From the NCBI GenBank assembly GCA_023245355.1, contig JAHFKN010000001.1, positions 139,528 to 203,527 of the forward strand: a stretch of DNA of 64,000 bases, given 5' to 3'. The stretch is from Candidatus Gottesmanbacteria bacterium (GTDB lineage: Bacteria; Patescibacteriota; Microgenomatia; UBA10105; UBA927). This document shows positions 10,287 to 23,277 of this stretch, one piece after another. Positions within the stretch are counted from its first letter, which is position 1. Each line of letters starts with the position of its first letter. Under the pieces are notes generated by a model. The model made no database searches, had not been told where the DNA came from, and saw only the letters and a list, made by a program, of their open reading frames with translations. A program made the translations under genes and the position numbers.

Positions 10287-11402
10287 CTACTTTACCACGT
10301 TCTCCCATGGGAAGCCACTTCGGCCGAAATGCCCGTATCTGGCAGTTTGCCGGTATATCGGCCGGCGCAGATTAAGCCCTTTTAATATACCCGGAACGGA
10401 CAGGTCTATAAGACTCCAGGCATACGCTTCGATATCTGCAATTGGCTTTTTTTCGGTACCGAACGTATCAATCGCTTTCCCCAGCGGCTCACGCTGACCT
10501 ATCACGTACGCCACACGCACCTCCACCCTGTCAGCCAACCCCTTTGCTACGATATTTTTTGCTATAAAACGCGCCGCATATGCCCCGCTCCTGTCTACCT
10601 TGGTCGGATCCTTGCCGGAGAACGCGCCTCCCCCGTGCCGGGAAAATCCGCCGTATGTATCTACAATAATTTTCCGCCCGGTAACTCCGGTATCGGAGGA
10701 AGGTCCTCCGATTTCCCACTGTCCCTTACTGCCGTTGACGACGACATTATCAAGAGACGGAGGCGTCAACTTATACTTTTTGAGCACGGGCTTGATCACT
10801 TTTTCATACAATGCTTTTTTAAGCTCGGCATTACTCACCTTGGGGTCATGCGGAACGGCAAGCACAATGCGCTCTACCGCCACGGGTTTATTGTTTTCAT
10901 AAATTACTTTCACTTCGCTTTTTCCGTCGGGACGCAAATACGGCAGTATCTTTTTCTCCCGCGTTTCGTCCATGCGTTCGACAAGCCGATGCGCGAGCAC
11001 GAGCGGCATCGGCATGTACTCCGGAGTTTCGTTTGTGGCGTACCCGAACATCATCCCCTGATCTCCCGCACCGCCGTCATCTACTCCCACCGCAATATCC
11101 GGTGACTGCTCGTGGATGTATACGGAAATCGGTGACTTATACGAAAAGTTGTATACGCCGTTGGTGTACCCCAAGGATTTAATCGTTTTCCTGGCAATCG
11201 CTTCATAATTCAGTTTCTTTTTGCAGGTCACTTCCCCCGCAAGGACGATCCGGTTTGTCGTAACCAGTGTCTCTACCGCCACCCGTGCTTTCGGGTCTAC
11301 AGAAAGTGCTGCGTCTACGATGGAATCCGAAATCTGGTCGCAGATTTTATCAGGATGCCCGCTTGCTACCGATTCGGATGTAAAATGCGTTATTTTTTTC
11401 AT
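10287..11402 (-). CDS. metK: S-adenosylmethionine synthetase
   Basis: Hallmark GGGAFSGKDPTKVDRSGAYAAR; N-terminal FTSESVASGHPDKICDQISD. Start at MKKITHF (11402). Confidence 0.95.
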   Translation of the reverse strand: MKKITHFTSESVASGHPDKICDQISDSIVDAALSVDPKARVAVETLVTTNRIVLAGEVTCKKKLNYEAIARKTIKSLGYTNGVYNFSYKSPISVYIHEQSPDIAVGVDDGGAGDQGMMFGYATNETPEYMPMPLVLAHRLVERMDETREKKILPYLRPDGKSEVKVIYENNKPVAVERIVLAVPHDPKVSNAELKKALYEKVIKPVLKKYKLTPPSLDNVVVNGSKGQWEIGGPSSDTGVTGRKIIVDTYGGFSRHGGGAFSGKDPTKVDRSGAYAARFIAKNIVAKGLADRVEVRVAYVIGQREPLGKAIDTFGTEKKPIADIEAYAWSLIDLSVPGILKGLNLRRPIYRQTARYGHFGRSGFPWENVVK

Positions 11403-11409
11403 ATATGCC

Positions 11410-11582
11410 TTTCCGCCCTGATAAGCAAAAAATAACCCCGCCAAGCGGGGTAAACTTTTTCCCTACTTCAGGCAAATCATTCCTCGGTATTCTACCGGGA
11501 TTCGTTTTGGCACCGTATCCCAATTTGGCTCGGTTGCCGGGCGGATTATTGAGCGAAATCTCTCCCCGCCACTCTTGATTTA
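11410..11582 (-). promoter_or_regulatory. SAM-I (S-box) riboswitch with intrinsic terminator in metK 5' leader
   Basis: Minus-strand leader reads TAAATCAAGAGTGGCGGGGAGAGA...AATCCGCCCGGCAACC...GGTGCCAA...GAGGAATGATTTG. This matches the SAM-I core (UCAAGAG-GGCGGAGGGA...CCCGGCAACC...GGUGCCAA...AGAUGA) with P1 AAATCA/TGATTT. It is followed by hairpin CCCCGCTTGGCGGGG + UUAUUUUUUG immediately before the metK ATG. Confidence 0.7.
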
Positions 11583-11622
11583 TTAACTTTTTATCTACGT
11601 TACTCTTCCCGGACGTATGTTG

Positions 11623-18239: not shown

Positions 18240-18548
18240 ATGCATAAAATATTGTATGATACACATCATATGCAAAAAGATGTAAAGAAACGTGACGGGA
18301 GTACTGAAGCGTACGAAGAAGATAAAATTGCACGCGTTGTGACAACTGCGGGACTCGCACCCGATAAGGCGCATGGTCTTGCCGCGGCCGTATCCGCTTG
18401 GGTGAATAGTCTGCCCGATACCCACATCTCTTCATTGCAGATACGGGACAAGGTGCTGGAGTTGCTAACCGCAGCAGACACTAATGCAGCAGATCTGTAC
18501 CGCTGGTACGAAACCACCAAAGAACCGCAGAAAAAAGACGCAAGCTGA
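18240..18548 (+). CDS. ATP-cone domain protein
   Basis: DVKKRDGSTEAYEEDKIARVV matches the ATP-cone N-terminus (V.KRDG..E.F...KI). Confidence 0.6.
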   Translation: MHKILYDTHHMQKDVKKRDGSTEAYEEDKIARVVTTAGLAPDKAHGLAAAVSAWVNSLPDTHISSLQIRDKVLELLTAADTNAADLYRWYETTKEPQKKDAS

Positions 18549-18603: not shown

Positions 18604-18844
18604 GTTGCACTGTGAGTGCAACTATTGTATGTTATCAGTGGTGCAAGTGCACTAGCTCTTTAAAACCGGAATATTTGTTTTTTGCCAAAAAACTTTCGCG
18701 CGGCGGAGGCTTACGCCTTCATAAAAACGGGGCATCATAGCCAACAATTATCGGGTATTGCTATATAGTTATTTATATTGCTATTACTTGCTATTTGGCT
18801 ATGTATATGTCTGATTCTTGTATGGATGGTGCAATCAAATGCAC
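18604..18844. promoter_or_regulatory. Operator-like palindromes with GTGCA/TGCAC half-sites: TTGCAC-tgtga-GTGCAA (18604-18622), GTGCA-ag-TGCAC (18641-18652), GTGCA-atcaaa-TGCAC (18829-18844)
   Basis: Three related inverted repeats upstream of the island 1 operon. The third lies about 50 bp upstream of the first gene's RBS. Confidence 0.45.
18757..18803 (+). repeat. Iteron-like direct repeats (A)TTGCTAT x3 + GGCTAT, phased 20/10/10 bp
   Basis: ATTGCTAT at 18757 and 18777, TTGCTAT at 18788, GGCTAT at 18798. Confidence 0.5.
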
Positions 18845-18895
18845 GGTCAATTTCAAACATTTTTTTGAGAGCTGCGAAAGGAGGTGAAATACCAT

Positions 18896-19180
18896 ATGGC
18901 AAAAAACAATACTGATGATTTAGTAGTTCCGGTTTCGGTCGCACATACATTGGTCGCAATATTCTTTGCGGATTCCAATAAAAAGGATCGGAATGTTGAT
19001 GAAATACATGCTGCGCTTTTTATAGCTGATAGGCTGAAGCATCGAGCAGAAGTATCTGAAGATGGATTCGTCCGAATTTCCGATGAGGAAGCGGTGACAA
19101 TTCTTCGTGAGCTTTACGCACGATTGTCTGACCCCTACAAACTAAAGAAAATAACGGATATGTTAACGACCCGAGGCTAA
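18896..19180 (+). CDS. Hypothetical protein (island 1, first gene)
   Basis: Strong RBS AAAGGAGGTGAAATACCAT-ATG; 94 aa. No known motif. Confidence 0.55.
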   Translation: MAKNNTDDLVVPVSVAHTLVAIFFADSNKKDRNVDEIHAALFIADRLKHRAEVSEDGFVRISDEEAVTILRELYARLSDPYKLKKITDMLTTRG

Positions 19181-19220
19181 CCCCTCCATCTTACAAAGCA
19201 ATTTACGTGTATAAACATCT

Positions 19221-19517
19221 ATGAAATTTGGAAAGGCCATAAATAAGTATCGCAAGGCTAAGAAGCTCTCTCAACGTGAGTTAGCCTTTATTGTGGGCGT
19301 AACACCCACATATTTATCTGCATTGGAAAACGACCGAAAAGAGCCAAGTATCAAGCTGATTCAAGAAATTTGTAAATCCTTGTCTATTCCTAAAGAAATA
19401 TTGTTTTGGGAGTCTCTCAACATGGTGGAGGGGATGACTCAAGATGATAAAAAAATTGTTTCTTCCGCAAAAGAAATCGTTAATAGTTATTTTCTTAAAT
19501 ATTCACATTTATCATGA
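19221..19517 (+). CDS. XRE-family HTH transcriptional regulator
   Basis: Cro/C1-type HTH LSQRELAFIVGVTPTYLSALENDRKEPSIKLIQEICKSLSIP. Confidence 0.8.
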   Translation: MKFGKAINKYRKAKKLSQRELAFIVGVTPTYLSALENDRKEPSIKLIQEICKSLSIPKEILFWESLNMVEGMTQDDKKIVSSAKEIVNSYFLKYSHLS

Positions 19518-20464
19518 TGGCTGCAAAAGCCTCTAAGATTATCACTTCCTCGTACAAAAGTTTTTGTGATTATCTGCGCATTTCCCCCGATGGTTTGGAA
19601 AAAATAATTCTCGGTCCAGATGCATTTATAGACCATAAATTTTCAAAGACCATAAAAGGAAAAAAACGTGATTTTTTGGTACCGAATACACAGCTTGCGG
19701 GTATCCTAAAGAAGATTGACCGTTTGGTTAAAAAACAAATTCCTCTTCCGTCTTACGTATACGGATGGGTTAAGGGAAAATCATCAAGAAAGAATGCGCT
19801 GTTACATGCGGGTGCTGAATATCTTTTTACCACTGATATAGAAAGTTTTTTTCCAAATATTTCACAACAAAAAATAAGCGACTCTCTTGTGAAGTCTGGT
19901 TTTAATCAAGTTGTCTCTACGAAGATTTCGTTGCTCACTACCTTTGGAGGAATATTGCCCCATGGATATCACTCCAGCCCAACCCTCGCCAATGTTGTCT
20001 TCATAGAAAATGATAGACGATTATATCGTTTGGCTAAGAAAAATCATTTTGTTTATAGTCGTTGTGGTGATGACATATCGTTGAGTGGTGAACGACCCGT
20101 TTATCCCCTTATGGGTACAATTAGCGCGATAGTGAGGCAGAGTGGTTTTATTTTATCTAAGAAAAAAACTATTAACTCGGGGCCTCACGACAAAAAAGTC
20201 ATCACAAAATTAGTTGTCAATTCTTCTCCAAGGCCAGAAAAAAAATACGTTTCAAATTTAAAGAATGATATTCGTTCATTATGGGAAGGTGGGGTTGGAT
20301 TAGCAAAACTTTCAAGGCAGAATGGCATGTCTCCAAAGAGAATGATTAAGAATATATGGGGTAGGCTACACTATGTAAAATCCTCAAACCCAAAATTGTA
20401 TCGGGCTATTCGCGGTCTTTTAGTTAAGGCTCGTACTAAGTTGGATATCGCGCCGCCGCGTTAA
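19514..20464 (+). CDS. Retron-type reverse transcriptase (non-canonical catalytic box CGDD)
   Basis: RT motifs: LVPNTQLAGILKKI; YGWVKGKSSRKNALLHAGAEYLFTTDIESFFPNI (retron 'GFVKGRS..NA..H......DLKDFFPSI'); LPHGYHSSPTLANVVF; YSRCGDDISLS (YxDD position); VITKLVVN (retron VTG region). 316 aa. ATGA overlap with the XRE stop. Confidence 0.7.
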   Translation: MMAAKASKIITSSYKSFCDYLRISPDGLEKIILGPDAFIDHKFSKTIKGKKRDFLVPNTQLAGILKKIDRLVKKQIPLPSYVYGWVKGKSSRKNALLHAGAEYLFTTDIESFFPNISQQKISDSLVKSGFNQVVSTKISLLTTFGGILPHGYHSSPTLANVVFIENDRRLYRLAKKNHFVYSRCGDDISLSGERPVYPLMGTISAIVRQSGFILSKKKTINSGPHDKKVITKLVVNSSPRPEKKYVSNLKNDIRSLWEGGVGLAKLSRQNGMSPKRMIKNIWGRLHYVKSSNPKLYRAIRGLLVKARTKLDIAPPR

Positions 20465-20530
20465 TGCGGGTCAAGGGCGCGTCTTCGCGCTTGCGGAGCC
20501 CTTGGCGCGCATTTGTGTTCCATAATTATT

Positions 20531-20578
20531 TTGGAGGAGAGGATGCTTTCCCAAGCAGCCTCCCTCCAATATTTTTTG
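20531..20578 (+). terminator. Putative intrinsic terminator after the RT gene
   Basis: TTGGAGGAGAGG...CCTCCCTCCAA stem followed by TATTTTTTG. Preceded by the GC hairpin GCGCG-TCTT-CGCGC. Confidence 0.4.
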
Positions 20579-21014
20579 TGTTTGGCGGCGCGATGATGAT
20601 AGCTATCCTATAATTCTATTTGCACTTTTTATTGTCAAGTGTAATAATTCCTTTTGCGAAACCAGTTACCAGTTGTTGAGAGCGCTTGCTACTGTTGCGT
20701 CCATGCATAAAGCATGGAAATTTCATCGGAGTTCGTCCTCAAAATCAAGCTTCTATTGTCGAAGCGGTTTAATCGTGAGATCTCAGATAAAGAAGCGATA
20801 GAGTTCTATCAAAGTCTCTATTACCTCGGTCGGGCTATCGCTCGTTTCCATGCTCCTCGGCATGAAAACACTAAAGCGAGTTAGCTCGTCCTCCCAATTA
20901 TCTTTGCTAGCAGGGGTGGCTCGCGACAGCGAGACCCTATGCTTGACTCCTTTTAGATCATTTCAAAAGGATAGGATAGACGGGTCTAAGGAATATCTTA
21001 AAGGCCGTTTTTTC

Positions 21015-21761
21015 GCCATGCGATCTCGACCATCGACGTTTTGTCGGCAAAATAAGTCGATGCTTCTGCACTACGATAATGGCAAAATTTCACATGCTAC
21101 CTTTTTGCGCATCCCGTGTCGTTCGTGGACGTGTCCCGATTGTGCTCCGACAAAAGCACATCGAGTTACCGCATTGCTTAAGGAGATCATTATCCTGAAT
21201 GATATGAAATATTTTTTGACTCTCACTCTCGATCCAGCAAATATTCCGCCCGAGTATTTGGTTCCAGAGAATCAGACGCATAAATATATAACCAAATTAT
21301 TTAACTCCCTTTTGTCCAATATTCGTTTGATCGAAAAAGATTTGCGTTATGTATGGGTTATAGAGTTTCAGAGAAATGGGAATGCGCATATGCATATTGT
21401 ATTAAATACTCGTCTCGATATCGTGCAGATTCGTAAAATTTGGACGCGTATCGGGGGTGGTGCGCAAAGTCGTGTTATGCAAATACGCGATCTTGTCAGT
21501 ATAGCTGCGTATCTTGCAAAATATGTTGGTAAAAGCTTGCTGGGATCTATTGGTAATCTGCATTATTTTGAGCGACGGTATAGCATTAGTCATTCGTGCA
21601 TGCGTCCTGTTATTTCTAAAGCAAAAACGTTTTATCCTGACCTTTCTCATGTGGGTCATTTGGCTATCTTGAGTCAGATGGGTTTACTTGGGGTATATAA
21701 TAAGCTTCTAATTGGCGACTTTATCGATGGCGAAACAATTTCTGTCGATAGAAAAATATGA
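21015..21761 (+). CDS. HUH-superfamily rolling-circle replication initiator (Rep)
   Basis: Motif I FLTLTLD; motif II HMHIVLN (HUHUUU); motif III YLAKYVGK (compare phiX174 gpA YVAKYVNK, two catalytic Tyr); Cys cluster CRSWTCPDC. The track ORF starts at 20850, but the likely start is the internal Met at about 21015. Confidence 0.65.
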   Translation, partial: AMRSRPSTFCRQNKSMLLHYDNGKISHATFLRIPCRSWTCPDCAPTKAHRVTALLKEIIILNDMKYFLTLTLDPANIPPEYLVPENQTHKYITKLFNSLLSNIRLIEKDLRYVWVIEFQRNGNAHMHIVLNTRLDIVQIRKIWTRIGGGAQSRVMQIRDLVSIAAYLAKYVGKSLLGSIGNLHYFERRYSISHSCMRPVISKAKTFYPDLSHVGHLAILSQMGLLGVYNKLLIGDFIDGETISVDRKI

Positions 21762-23242
21762 AATATTTTGTTTATAACCGTAAATCTACTGATGAATCTG
21801 GTAACCAGATTCTTTCCCTTGAGACCCAACGAGCCATAACCGATCATATAGCTCAACAATCTAGCTTGGAGGTTATAGAGACCATTCAGGAAGCCCGAAG
21901 TGCCAAGATTGCAGGCAATCGTCCGCTGTTTACCTCGATGCTTGTACGTGTTCGAGATGGGGAGGCAGAGGGGATAATTGTTGCGCACTTAGACCGACTA
22001 GCGCGTAACGAGAGGGAGTTAGCAGATATCGTCGAGCTTATGCAGAGTAAAGCGCTAAAAGAAGTTCGTACAAAGGATAAGATTTATGACTCGGTTGATG
22101 ATATTTACTACATGGGTATCGACCTTATTGGTGCAGCACAATTTTCTCGTAAACTTGCTGTTCGGGTAAAAGAGGGCATGCAAACAAAAGTTCGCCGTGG
22201 AGAATTCCCGACTCGCGCGCCGATAGGATATATAAACAGAGATGCAAAAATATATCCCGACCCAAACAACCTAAATTACATCAAATTAGCCTTTTCGCTG
22301 TATGCAGATGGCACGCATTCCCTTAAATCCATCACTTATATCCTGAATGACCGTGGTATGCGCACTCGGTACTCTAGGCAAGAGATACAAAAATCCGTTA
22401 TCCATGGAATACTTTCTAATCCTGTCTATTATGGAGCGATTCGTTCTGGTGGAACTCTCTACAAAGGAATTCACGAACCCATTATAAGCAAGGCGCTTTT
22501 TGATCAAGTACAAGAGGTTATGCACGGACATAATAATCCCAAGAAAGAAAAACATGACTATTTGTATCGCGGGTATCTCAAATGCGGCGTCTGTGGCTGT
22601 TCTCTCACCGCTACGCTTAAAAAGCAAAAACATATCTATTACTACTGCACCAATGCCAAAGGTGGTTGCACCCAGCACAATAAATATCTGACACAAGCAC
22701 AGGTTACTGAAAAAATCCCAGAAGTCTTTAAGCCCTTTTCCGCCTTAGAAGCAGATTTTGCACAGCTTGCTTATGAGACGTATGTGAACGATCTAAAAAA
22801 TGGAAGCGTGTCCGCACAAGATCAAGCAGAAGTGGCGCTAAAAGAGATAGATACTAAGTTGGGACGATTACTCGATCTCTACATTTCAGGGTCAGTCGAT
22901 GAGTCGTTGTATAACGAGAAGCGTAAAAAGTTGTCAGAGGAGCGCGTGAAATTAAGTCTCCAATTAACATCCCAAAAAACCGTAGACCCTACTTTAACTT
23001 TGGAACAAATGGAACGGCTGAAAAAGAGCGCTCTATCAATCTATACGATGTTTTGTGAGGGAGATGACTTAGTAAAGGCTGATCTATTGCGTTCAGCACT
23101 TTGGAACGCGCATTGGGTAAATGGAAACATCACGTCCCAGCAATACAAACCTCTTTGGCAAATACTTGAAAAAGGCCTCAAAAGTACCGATTTTAAAACT
23201 ATGTACCCCCTGCCGGATTCGAACCGGCGATTCACGGGCTGA
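21758..23242 (+). CDS. Large serine recombinase (integrase)
   Basis: N-terminal resolvase domain YNRKSTDESGNQILSLETQ (catalytic Ser region) and IIVAHLDRLARN; recombinase domain; zinc ribbon CGVCGC...YYYC. The C-terminal about 13 codons and the stop are encoded antisense within tRNA-Glu. Confidence 0.85.
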   Translation: MKYFVYNRKSTDESGNQILSLETQRAITDHIAQQSSLEVIETIQEARSAKIAGNRPLFTSMLVRVRDGEAEGIIVAHLDRLARNERELADIVELMQSKALKEVRTKDKIYDSVDDIYYMGIDLIGAAQFSRKLAVRVKEGMQTKVRRGEFPTRAPIGYINRDAKIYPDPNNLNYIKLAFSLYADGTHSLKSITYILNDRGMRTRYSRQEIQKSVIHGILSNPVYYGAIRSGGTLYKGIHEPIISKALFDQVQEVMHGHNNPKKEKHDYLYRGYLKCGVCGCSLTATLKKQKHIYYYCTNAKGGCTQHNKYLTQAQVTEKIPEVFKPFSALEADFAQLAYETYVNDLKNGSVSAQDQAEVALKEIDTKLGRLLDLYISGSVDESLYNEKRKKLSEERVKLSLQLTSQKTVDPTLTLEQMERLKKSALSIYTMFCEGDDLVKADLLRSALWNAHWVNGNITSQQYKPLWQILEKGLKSTDFKTMYPLPDSNRRFTG

Positions 23243-23277
23243 AAACCCGTTGTCCTAGGCCGCTAGACGAAGGGGGC
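23204..23277 (-). tRNA. tRNA-Glu (anticodon UUC)
   Basis: Reverse complement GCCCCCTTCGTCTAGCGGCCTAGGACAACGGGTTTTCAGCCCGTGAATCGCCGGTTCGAATCCGGCAGGGGGTA. Cloverleaf with anticodon loop UUUUCAG. Close to E. coli tRNA-Glu. Confidence 0.85.

What the first reader, a model, noticed from the sequence alone, without database searches (positions are those of the whole stretch)
18604..18844. Three GTGCA/TGCAC operator-like palindromes plus helically phased TTGCTAT iterons upstream of the island 1 operon
TTGCAC-N5-GTGCAA, GTGCA-N2-TGCAC and GTGCA-N6-TGCAC lie in the leader of the XRE/RT operon, the first two about 33 bp apart. Between them and the operon are four TTGCTAT-type direct repeats phased 20/10/10 bp (18757-18803), like plasmid iterons or phased repressor sites. 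A TTGCAC half-site recurs 3' of the RT at about 20616. This looks like a regulatory or replication control region for the XRE protein or the Rep.
Basis: seen in the sequence. Interest (0 to 1): 0.55.

Follow-up and report, generated by a model that had tools for sequence, protein, structure and literature searches.

The report
Structured leader RNA of a retron
The "operators and iterons" are mostly stems and loops of the structured RNA at the start of a type VI retron (a reverse-transcriptase anti-phage system), so this is a new, divergent example of a recently described kind of element, not a protein-binding or replication control region.

Summary
All the motifs are present and are more frequent than chance. 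The repeat spacing is 20/10/8, not 20/10/10, and palindrome 1 has its half-sites in the opposite order to palindromes 2 and 3.

Downstream lies a type VI retron: a small protein (SP, 18896-19180), an HTH (19221-19517; PADLOC HTH_VI, 5e-21) and a retron RT (19514-20464). Published type VI retrons carry a structured RNA in exactly this upstream position.

Four homologous SP-HTH-RT loci from metagenomes allowed comparison:
- **Palindrome 2** is a 6-bp stem with a 4-nt loop. All six pairs show compensatory changes.
- **Palindrome 3 and the TTGCTAT repeats** lie inside a strongly folded domain (z about -6.6). Long-range helices to the SP start codon and codons 11-14 close this domain. Neither motif is conserved in sequence.
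- **Palindrome 1** is the only motif conserved in sequence. It overlaps the only promoter candidate shared by all five loci (TTGCAC, 17 nt, TATGTT). The predicted transcription start falls at the foot of palindrome 2. It may also be an operator.

The nearby Rep is not linked to this region in the relatives. Verdict: a new member of a known kind, of moderate interest.

The parts
18604..18622 (+). Palindrome 1 (GTTGCAC-TGTGA-GTGCAAC). A sequence-conserved DNA element that overlaps the predicted -35 box and spacer. Candidate operator.
   Evidence: TTGCACT..AGT..AA is invariant in 5 loci. There is no covariation, and 4 of 5 loci have a C.A mismatch. Two similar palindromes lie in tandem upstream of a Rep gene in viral contig L026. 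One search also flags it as terminator-like.
18605..18633 (+). Predicted promoter: -35 TTGCAC (18605-10), 17-nt spacer, -10 TATGTT (18628-33). Transcription start inferred near 18639-18641.
   Evidence: It is the only promoter candidate at the same position in all five loci. In three loci a TG precedes the -10 box by one base. This is an inference with no expression data.
18639..18654 (+). HP2, which is palindrome 2: a stem-loop (UGGUGC-AAGU-GCACUA) at the predicted 5' end of the transcript.
   Evidence: 6 of 6 pairs have changes on both sides and 100% of cells are paired in 5 loci. RNAalifold predicts it independently. Retron-Sen3 has an equivalent conserved stem-loop just 5' of its ncRNA that is required for defence.
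18655..18672 (+). Box A (GCTCTTTAAAACCGGAAT; GCTCTTTGACAGCTG in relatives). Its 3' half is the 5' strand of long-range helix P0.
   Evidence: Conserved block in A4 and A5. P0 pairing shown.
18663..18935 (+). Helix P0: 18663-18672 pairs with 18926-18935, which are SP codons 11-14.
   Evidence: MFE fold. Relatives have CAGCUG/CAGCUG where the window has CCGG/CCGG, giving 6 positions changed on both strands with pairing kept. RNAalifold predicts it. Absent in L016.
18675..18909 (+). Helix P1: a 13-bp perfect inverted repeat, 18675-18687 with 18897-18909. It covers the U and G of the SP start codon and codons 2-5, and resembles a retron a2/a1 closing stem.
   Evidence: (I6). The cognate 5' segment/initiation-region duplex is -28.4 kcal/mol, z = -5.0. 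Each relative pairs a different 5' sequence with its own SD/AUG.
18692..18885 (+). Helices 18692-97/18880-85 (which covers the SD GGAGGU) and 18699-704/18871-76.
   Evidence: MFE fold. SD pairing probability is only 0.68 here, no better than shuffled controls, but about 1.0 in the four relatives.
18705..18720 (+). HP4 hairpin (GGAGGC-UUAC-GCCUUC). It starts at the invariant CG-R-AG box.
   Evidence: Every locus has a hairpin of different sequence at this point.
18721..18821 (+). Central long hairpin that contains the TTGCTAT repeats (18758, 18778, 18788) and TGGCTAT (18796). Candidate template for reverse transcription (msd-like).
   Evidence: MFE helices. Repeat 4 pairs with CAUAGCCAA at 18736-44. 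The region varies in sequence and length in relatives. The repeats are found only in the window. TRF reports a weak period-12 array. The template role is by analogy with Sen3 SL3.
18825..18848 (+). HP5, which is palindrome 3 (GAU-G-GUGCA-AUCAAA-UGCAC-G-GUC).
   Evidence: MFE fold. All four relatives have a 7-8 bp hairpin of unrelated sequence at the same place, just 5' of box B.
18851..18870 (+). HP6, which includes box B (UUUCAAACAUUUU), the most conserved 3' motif.
   Evidence: RNAalifold instead pairs CAUUUU with the SD through G.U pairs.
18880..18898 (+). SP ribosome-binding site (GGAGG 18880-84, within the conserved GAAAGGAGGTGA) and start codon (18896-98).
18896..19180 (+). SP, a 94-aa small protein and predicted toxic effector.
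   Evidence: Sits immediately 5' of the HTH. Weak homology (16-27% identity, shared N(L/R)NV(D/N)E motif) to the SPs of relatives. No family hit. The toxin role is by analogy.
19221..19517 (+). HTH protein (Cro/C1 type; type VI retron HTH).
   Evidence: PADLOC HTH_VI 5.3e-21. Pfam HTH_3 2.3e-14. 39-49% identical to the HTHs of relatives, with a near-invariant recognition helix.
19514..20464 (+). Retron reverse transcriptase (316 aa; CGDD in place of YADD).
   Evidence: PADLOC RT_VI 5.9e-49 and RT_III-A 3.5e-49. Pfam RVT_1. The nearest relatives are 36-39% identical and all sit in SP-HTH-RT loci.

Best explanation
The interval 18604-18844 is the promoter plus the structured 5' domain of the transcript of a type VI retron with the layout ncRNA-SP-HTH-RT. 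The proposed chain of events is as follows.

1. A sigma-70-like promoter (TTGCAC, 17 nt, TATGTT) starts transcription near 18640 (inferred). Palindrome 1 overlaps this promoter. It is a conserved DNA element and may also be an operator.
2. The RNA begins with a terminal stem-loop, which is palindrome 2 (structure shown by covariation).
3. The next ~250 nt fold into a multi-helix domain. It is closed by long-range helices between 18663-18704 and the SP ribosome-binding region, start codon and codons 2-14 (predicted, with comparative support).
4. Inside this domain lie a short hairpin, a ~100-nt central hairpin holding the TTGCTAT repeats, and palindrome 3 as another hairpin.
5. By analogy with Retron-Sen3 and Retron-Vpa2, the RT, together with the HTH, binds this RNA and copies its inner part into single-stranded DNA.
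6. Also by analogy, the fold restrains translation of the toxic SP, and/or the HTH neutralises SP, until phage infection.

Steps 5 and 6 are inferred, not shown here.
For: Gene content:
- HTH matches PADLOC HTH_VI at 5e-21 and the RT is a retron RT at ~1e-49. The order is SP-HTH-RT.
- The closest RTs among 1.8 billion representative proteins are all in SP-HTH-RT loci, and their HTHs also match HTH_VI.

Literature: type VI retrons have a structured ncRNA within ~280 nt of the SP start. It has terminal inverted repeats, a sequestered SP ribosome-binding site, a conserved stem-loop 5' of the ncRNA that is required for defence, and a transcript that runs into SP.

Folding:
- Window 18638-18941 folds at -101.4 kcal/mol, z = -6.6. 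All four relatives also fold well, z = -3.4 to -7.0.
- A 13-bp perfect inverted repeat joins 18675-87 to the start codon region.

Comparative:
- HP2 has 6 of 6 compensatory pairs, 100% paired, and 0 of 500 shuffles reach the covariation score.
- P0 shows 6 double changes that keep pairing.
- RNAalifold finds both helices unaided.
- Every locus pairs a different 5' sequence with its own SD/AUG, and SD pairing probability is ~1.0 in the four relatives.
- The sequences of palindromes 2 and 3 and the TTGCTAT repeats are absent from relatives, although the HTH recognition helix is near-invariant.
- The TTGCAC promoter is the only candidate positionally conserved in all five loci, and its predicted start falls at the base of HP2 in each.
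Against: - Only five distinct loci were available. No expression, RT-DNA or defence data exist for any of them.
- In the window the SD is no more paired than in shuffled controls (0.68 against 0.75).
- The cognate versus non-cognate duplex test is only suggestive: 2 of 120 permutations.
- The minus strand also folds well, so folding energy does not fix the strand.
- The 3' strand of P0 is coding sequence, so part of its conservation could come from the protein.
- HP2 covariation alone cannot separate an RNA hairpin from a DNA palindrome.
- No branching G or priming site could be identified.
- No Rfam family matches.
- The RT scores RT_VI and RT_III-A equally.
- The TTGCAC -35 matches the consensus at only 3 of 6 positions.
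- The reason for three TTGCTAT copies remains unexplained.
Confidence: 0.82

Rival explanations
1. The three palindromes are operators for the XRE protein, and the TTGCTAT repeats are phased iterons or repressor sites that control transcription of the operon or replication by the Rep.
For: The motifs are real and over-represented. An XRE-type HTH is encoded in the operon and a Rep lies on the same island. Palindrome 1 is conserved in sequence.
Against: - The palindromes differ in half-site order and in spacer length (5, 2 and 6 nt).
- The sequences of palindromes 2 and 3 differ completely in four homologous loci, whose HTH recognition helix is near-invariant.
- TTGCTAT repeats are absent from relatives, are 7-nt units spaced 20/10/8, and lie inside predicted helices.
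- The Rep is HUH-type, lies 2 kb away behind its own promoter-like site, and has no homologue in the held sequence next to the homologous retrons.
Confidence: 0.05
2. A sub-claim compatible with the main model. Palindrome 1 (TTGCAC-N5-GTGCAA) is a true operator through which the retron HTH, or another XRE-type repressor, controls the retron promoter.
For: - The spacer of the predicted promoter is conserved beyond what a promoter needs: AGT..AA is invariant.
- The half-sites are 11 bp apart centre to centre.
- The HTH recognition helix is conserved in step with the site.
- Two such palindromes lie 20 bp apart upstream of a Rep gene in viral contig L026, one sharing a 16-mer with the window.
- The best NCBIfam similarity of the HTH is to RstR and to type II antitoxins, which autoregulate, though all hits are below cut-off.
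Against: - The palindrome is imperfect in 4 of 5 loci.
- Neither preprint read mentions an operator or autoregulation; a search of the two texts for those words returned nothing. There the HTH binds RT, RNA and SP.
- The Riemerella type VI locus lacks the motif.
- TTGCAC alone also serves as a -35-like hexamer at 20620.
Confidence: 0.3
3. Palindrome 1 is simply the intrinsic terminator of the upstream ATP-cone gene, which ends at 18548.
For: The consensus scan calls it terminator-like: a 7-8 bp stem followed by TATTGTATGT, 56 nt after the stop codon.
Against: - The same element, at the same distance from the SP gene, accompanies the retron in four loci with other upstream genes. There the stem carries a C.A mismatch and a G.U pair.
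- The T-run is interrupted.
- The scan finds as many such sites in shuffled sequence (3 found, 2.9 expected).
Confidence: 0.1

Closest known systems
Retron-Sen3 and the cl2075 lineage of type VI retrons (Garcia-Rodriguez et al., bioRxiv 10.64898/2026.04.27.721009)
   Same: - SP-HTH-RT gene order.
- A structured ncRNA within ~300 nt of the SP start, closed by terminal inverted repeats.
- The SP initiation region lies in the basal stem.
- A short covarying stem-loop lies just 5' of the ncRNA.
- A long, variable central hairpin.
- RNA structure extends into the SP coding region, and a conserved element follows the SP stop codon.
   Different: - No sequence-level relationship was found for the ncRNA or the SP.
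- The best non-self RT match of any kind is 36-39% identical.
- The host is unidentified. Its strong GGAGG sites suggest, as my inference only, that it is not an enterobacterium.
- Here the outer helix uses SP codons 11-14.
- Whether single-stranded DNA is made constitutively is unknown.
Retron-Vpa2 hybrid RNA (hyRNA) (Zhang et al., bioRxiv 10.1101/2025.10.22.683967)
   Same: A single structured transcript combines the reverse-transcription template with the SP ribosome-binding site, start codon and coding sequence. Translation of SP is plausibly masked by structure. RT, HTH and RNA are expected to form a complex.
   Different: - The conserved 7-nt direct repeats of Vpa2 (one in an msd loop, one in the riboregulator loop) have no demonstrated counterpart here.
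- The window's TTGCTAT repeats all lie in the central hairpin and are not conserved.
- In the window the SD itself is only weakly masked; the start codon and codons 2-5 are the strongly paired part.
Canonical retron msr-msd RNA (for example Ec86/Eco1)
   Same: An inverted repeat (a2/a1-like, 13 bp) closes a domain of short hairpins plus one long hairpin next to a retron RT gene.
   Different: - No Rfam match.
- No identifiable branching G next to the 5' arm.
- The 3' arm lies inside a protein-coding gene.
- Two genes separate the RNA from the RT.
Plasmid iterons and phage Cro/CI operators
   Same: Short repeated or palindromic DNA motifs lie upstream of an operon that encodes an HTH protein, on an element that also encodes a Rep.
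   Different: - Units are 7 nt rather than ~17-22 bp, with irregular spacing.
- They are not conserved in homologous elements.
- The palindromes differ in geometry.
- Only palindrome 1 behaves like a conserved DNA site.

Membership tests
Type VI retron (Mestre et al. 2020 classification) | Retron-clade reverse transcriptase | tested here: met
   PADLOC retron RT models score 1e-49 to 1e-31, and Pfam RVT_1 hits. An NAxxH motif is present (NALLH). NCBIfam retron RT models hit below cut-off.
Type VI retron (Mestre et al. 2020 classification) | RT falls in the type VI clade rather than another retron type | tested here: inconclusive
   RT_VI (5.9e-49) and RT_III-A (3.5e-49) tie for the window RT. 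Among relatives, RT_VI is clearly best for P0009 and the Riemerella RT and near-tied for P0008 and P0011. No phylogeny was made.
Type VI retron (Mestre et al. 2020 classification) | Cro/C1-type HTH (cluster cl2_1) directly upstream of, or overlapping, the RT gene | tested here: met
   PADLOC HTH_VI 5.3e-21 over residues 3-86. The HTH stop overlaps the RT start by 4 nt, 19514-19517.
Type VI retron (Mestre et al. 2020 classification) | Small accessory protein (SP) gene upstream of the HTH | tested here: met
   A 94-aa ORF at 18896-19180 with a strong ribosome-binding site. Positional and weak sequence homologues occur in five related loci. Membership of the named SP clusters could not be tested.
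Type VI retron ncRNA / hyRNA | Structured RNA within ~280-300 nt of the SP start, closed by inverted repeats that involve the SP initiation region | tested here: met
   z = -6.6 to -6.8. 13-bp inverted repeat onto the start codon. P0 shows compensatory changes. RNAalifold agrees. SD masking is weak in the window itself.
Type VI retron ncRNA / hyRNA | Conserved short stem-loop immediately 5' of the ncRNA | tested here: met
   HP2 at 18639-18654: 6 of 6 compensatory pairs in 5 loci. The Sen3 counterpart is described in the text read.
Type VI retron ncRNA / hyRNA | RT-dependent single-stranded DNA, SP toxicity, phage defence | not testable with these tools
   Needs experiments.
Canonical retron msr-msd | Match to known msr/msd covariance models; branching G next to the a2 arm | tested here: not met
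   No Rfam hit even at E <= 10. The 5' arm is followed by AAAAAAC, with no G.
Plasmid iterons | Several direct repeats of ~17-22 bp at regular helical spacing, next to the rep gene or origin, and conserved among related replicons | tested here: not met
   7-nt units spaced 20/10/8. They lie 2 kb from an HUH-type Rep and are absent from homologous loci. TRF score is 35, below the usual threshold.
HTH (Cro/CI/XRE) operator set | Sites share half-site sequence, orientation and spacing, and are conserved where the recognition helix is conserved | tested here: not met
   This holds for the set of three: orientations and spacers differ, and palindromes 2 and 3 are not conserved although the recognition helix is near-invariant. 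For palindrome 1 alone the test is inconclusive: it is conserved in sequence.
Intrinsic terminator (palindrome 1) | Stable GC-rich stem followed by a U-run at the end of the upstream gene | tested here: inconclusive
   The consensus scan flags it. However, the element travels with the retron rather than with the upstream gene, and is mismatched in relatives.

The most novel reading that the evidence does not exclude
The conserved TTGCAC-N5-GT(G/A)(C/T)AA palindrome may be a real operator bound by the retron's RstR-like HTH. The same operator type guards the Rep promoter of a phage-like element: contig L026 has two sites 20 bp apart. The retron HTH and a mobile-element repressor would then share DNA specificity. 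That would tie expression of the retron (or of its SP toxin) to the presence or state of a Rep-encoding phage or satellite. This would add a DNA-binding, transcriptional layer that has not been described for type VI retrons.
Probability: 0.1. Interest if true: 0.7.

Novelty: new member of a known kind. Interest (0 to 1): 0.4.

Why it matters
Type VI retrons were long thought to lack a recognisable ncRNA. Only two preprints, on proteobacterial systems, describe one.

This locus and its four metagenomic relatives belong to a divergent lineage:
- The best non-self RT match is 39% identical.
- The SP has no detectable family.
- A search of 185,579 representative genomes with the conserved DNA motif found only chance hits.

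Despite this divergence, the lineage keeps the same architecture: a 5' stem-loop, an RNA domain closed onto the SP start region, and structure reaching into the SP gene. That supports the view that the hybrid RNA design is ancestral to the type. It also gives an independent sequence set for testing which helices matter.

For annotation, it shows that clusters of short palindromes and repeats upstream of an HTH-RT pair should first be read as retron RNA.

Tried and rejected
- **Word-indexed protein searches.** Searches with SP, HTH and RT returned only the query itself, plus distant RTs at 31-36% identity. Those RTs belong to a different architecture (166-aa, 245-aa and 55-aa genes before the RT) and were set aside.
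- **Contigs carrying the identical SP.** They are identical in the upstream region and give no variation.
- **The search for related loci with RT alignments.** It failed or found nothing in genomes and viral contigs, and found one locus (L017) in metagenomes.
- **DNA-pattern scan of the representative genomes.** It gave two chance hits inside unrelated genes.
- **Viral scans.** They gave chance hits except L026.
- **tblastn of the RT against plasmids and phages.** Nothing closer was found. The Vibrio HTH hit (L012) is an HTH-cupin protein, not a retron.
- **Rfam.** No family match.
- **Box A as a promoter.** It contains TTGACA in three loci, but no conserved -10 box follows it (reading).
- **Organism name.** A cluster look-up gave none.
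- **Covariance model of the whole 304-nt domain.** Not built, because calibration would exceed the time limit.
- **Alignment of the central region.** MAFFT alignments there are not structure-aware, so HP5 and the inner helices were compared per locus, not column by column.

Full report
**Observation**

- TTGCAC-N5-GTGCAA is at 18605-21. It extends to a 7-bp-arm palindrome at 18604-22.
- GTGCA-AG-TGCAC is at 18641-52.
- GTGCA-N6-TGCAC is at 18829-44.
- TTGCTAT is at 18758, 18778 and 18788, and TGGCTAT is at 18796.

They are not chance.
- GTGCA-N(0-8)-TGCAC occurs three times in 64 kb, two of them here, against 0.45 expected.
- The pentamers and TTGCTAT are 10 to 40 times over-represented in the 347-nt intergenic region.
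- Against local composition, three TTGCTAT copies are matched by only 6 of 500 shuffles.

Two details are wrong or were overlooked.
- The spacing is 20/10/8, not 20/10/10.
- Palindrome 1 has the order TGCAC..GTGCA, and the other two have the opposite order. The spacers are 5, 2 and 6 nt.

**Context**

The gene upstream (18240-18548) encodes an ATP-cone protein. Downstream lie:
- a 94-aa ORF with a perfect extended Shine-Dalgarno sequence (18896-19180);
- an HTH protein (19221-19517) that matches the PADLOC model for type VI retron HTH proteins at 5e-21;
- an overlapping retron reverse transcriptase (19514-20464; RT_VI 6e-49, tied with RT_III-A).

An HUH-type Rep, a large serine recombinase and a tRNA gene follow.

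Two recent preprints describe type VI retrons as ncRNA-SP-HTH-RT systems.
- In Retron-Vpa2, one structured "hybrid RNA" carries both the reverse-transcription template and the masked SP start.
- In Retron-Sen3 and its lineage, an ncRNA lies within ~280 nt of the SP start. It has terminal inverted repeats, an SP ribosome-binding site inside the basal stem, a long variable central hairpin, pairing that reaches around the SP gene, and a short covarying stem-loop just 5' of the ncRNA. That stem-loop is required for defence.

**The thing itself**

A 13-nt perfect inverted repeat joins 18675-87 to 18897-909, which is the UG of the start codon plus codons 2-5.

The stretch 18638-18941 folds at -101.4 kcal/mol, z = -6.6. 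In the minimum-energy fold:
- palindrome 2 is a stem-loop at the predicted 5' end of the RNA (18639-54);
- 18663-72 pairs with SP codons 11-14 (helix P0);
- the 13-bp helix follows (P1);
- two 6-bp helices then cover the SD region.

Inside this closure are a short hairpin (18705-20), a ~100-nt hairpin (18721-18821) that holds all four TTGCTAT-type repeats, palindrome 3 as a hairpin (18825-48), and a hairpin that contains a conserved UCAAACAUUUU box.

**Relatives**

Word-indexed searches found only the same sequence. An exhaustive HMMER search with the RT found relatives at 36-39% identity. Every one of their contigs that reaches far enough upstream shows SP-HTH-RT, and their HTHs also match HTH_VI. 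Four of these contigs (L013, L016, L017, L018) include the upstream region.

*Palindrome 1 is conserved in sequence.*
- TTGCACT..AGT..AA is invariant.
- As a helix it carries a C.A mismatch in four of five loci and shows no covariation.
- It therefore behaves as a DNA element.
- TTGCAC, a 17-18 nt spacer and a TAnnnT box form the only promoter candidate at the same position in all five loci. In three loci a TG precedes the box by one base.
- In each locus this promoter puts the start at the first bases of the next hairpin.

*Palindrome 2 is conserved only as structure.*
- All six base pairs change on both sides and every cell stays paired. None of 500 shuffles reaches the covariation score.
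- RNAalifold predicts this hairpin and helix P0 without guidance.
- In P0 the relatives have CAGCUG on both strands where the window has CCGG. That gives six double changes that keep pairing.
- Each locus pairs a different 5' sequence with its own SD and/or start codon. SD pairing probability is about 1.0 in the four relatives, against 0.66-0.78 with shuffled upstream sequence.

*Palindrome 3 and the repeats.*
- Palindrome 3 corresponds to a 7-8 bp hairpin of unrelated sequence at the same place in every relative.
- The TTGCTAT repeats have no counterpart. No relative has an over-represented k-mer in its central region.
- TRF sees only a weak period-12 array in the window.

**Why most of it is not an operator or iteron region**

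- The HTH recognition helix (T-S/P-T-Y-L/I-S-A-L/I-E-N-N/D-R-K-E-P-S) is almost invariant across the loci. Any operator should therefore be conserved in sequence. Only palindrome 1 is.
- The three palindromes also differ in geometry.
- The repeats are 7-nt units lying inside helices.
- The Rep is an HUH enzyme 2 kb away, behind its own promoter-like site. That site explains the TTGCAC at 20620.
- No Rep or recombinase homologue is present in the held sequence next to the related retrons.
- None of the motifs occurs in the second island.

The spacer of the predicted promoter is conserved more than a promoter needs, and the half-sites are one helical turn apart.

A viral contig (L026) has two such palindromes 20 bp apart. 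One shares a 16-mer with the window. They lie upstream of a Rep gene of the same Pfam family as the window's Rep. Palindrome 1 may therefore be a genuine operator type, perhaps for the retron HTH. The best curated similarities of that HTH, all below cut-off, are to the RstR repressor and to type II antitoxins.

Neither preprint reports DNA binding by the HTH; a search of both texts for "operator" or "autoregulat" found nothing. This stays a hypothesis at about 0.3.

The terminator reading of palindrome 1 is unlikely, because the element travels with the retron and not with the upstream gene.

**Mechanism proposed**

1. Transcription starts at about 18640 (inferred).
2. A 5' stem-loop (structure shown by covariation) is probably needed for RNA stability or recognition, as in Sen3 (by analogy).
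3. The RNA domain is closed onto the SP start region (predicted, with comparative support).
4. RT and HTH bind this RNA and copy its inner part, roughly 18721-18870, into single-stranded DNA (by analogy).
5. SP acts as a toxin, held in check by RNA structure and/or by the HTH until infection (by analogy).

**Weak points**

- Only five loci were available, and there are no expression data.
- In the window the SD itself is not better paired than in controls.
- The duplex permutation test is only suggestive.
- Folding energy does not fix the strand.
- No priming G was identified, and there is no Rfam match.
- The RT profile is tied between types VI and III-A.
- The three TTGCTAT copies have no explanation beyond a local duplication.

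**Verdict**

The finding is real as an observation. It is best explained as the promoter and structured leader RNA of a divergent type VI retron. That makes it a new member of a recently described kind, of moderate interest.

Noticed in passing
L026 2269-2306 (IMGVR_UViG_3300027542_000848): Two palindromes of the palindrome-1 type lie 20 bp apart (TTGCACTGACAGTTCAA and ATGCACTGTGAGTGCAA). The second shares a 16-mer with window 18606-21. They sit about 130 nt upstream of a REP_ORF2-G2P Rep gene that is distantly related to the window's Rep. No retron genes occur in the 7.4 kb held.
   Followed up: partly
window 19181-19187; also L016, L017 and L018 just after the SP stop codon: A CCUCC-type sequence complementary to a Shine-Dalgarno site (CCCCTCC in the window) directly follows the SP stop codon in 4 of 5 loci. 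The HTH gene has no recognisable ribosome-binding site. This could be the 3' arm of a long-range pairing around SP, like IR2 of Sen3.
   Followed up: partly
window 18857-18863 with 18880-18886: RNAalifold pairs the conserved box B (CAUUUU) with the SD (GGAGGUG), mostly through G.U pairs. These are possible only in plus-strand RNA. This is an alternative, local mask of the ribosome-binding site.
   Followed up: no
window 18840-18844; L013 and L017 at equivalent places: A copy of the 3' arm of the 5' stem-loop (HP2) lies 10-25 nt upstream of box B in three loci. This would allow an alternative long-range pairing with the 5' arm of HP2. It was seen by eye, with no statistics.
   Followed up: no
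window 20063-20074 (RT residues 184-187): The RT catalytic box reads CGDD instead of the usual YADD. The relatives have FVDD, FIDD or YGDD.
   Followed up: no
window 20850-23277: The retron sits on a small island with an HUH-type Rep (20850-21761) and a large serine recombinase (21758-23242). The 3' end of the recombinase gene overlaps a tRNA gene on the opposite strand (23204-23277). GC content is 41% on the island against 48% for the window.
   Followed up: no
window 20447-20594 and 20619-20648: GC-rich inverted repeats lie right after the RT stop (20463-78/20498-513 and 20447-57/20584-94). A promoter-like site follows (TTTGCA, 18 nt, TG-AATAAT) ahead of the Rep gene. These are probably the retron terminator and the Rep promoter or origin.
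   Followed up: no
window 11471-11584 (minus strand): A SAM-I riboswitch (48 bits) lies upstream of the gene at 10287-11444. It is unrelated to the finding.
   Followed up: no
L011 2724-4135 (Riemerella anatipestifer plasmid pRCAD0416RA-1): An annotated plasmid carries an SP-HTH-RT type VI retron. Its HTH is 40% identical to the window's, and RT_VI is clearly its best RT model. It lies next to floR and IS elements, and it lacks the palindrome-1 motif.
   Followed up: partly
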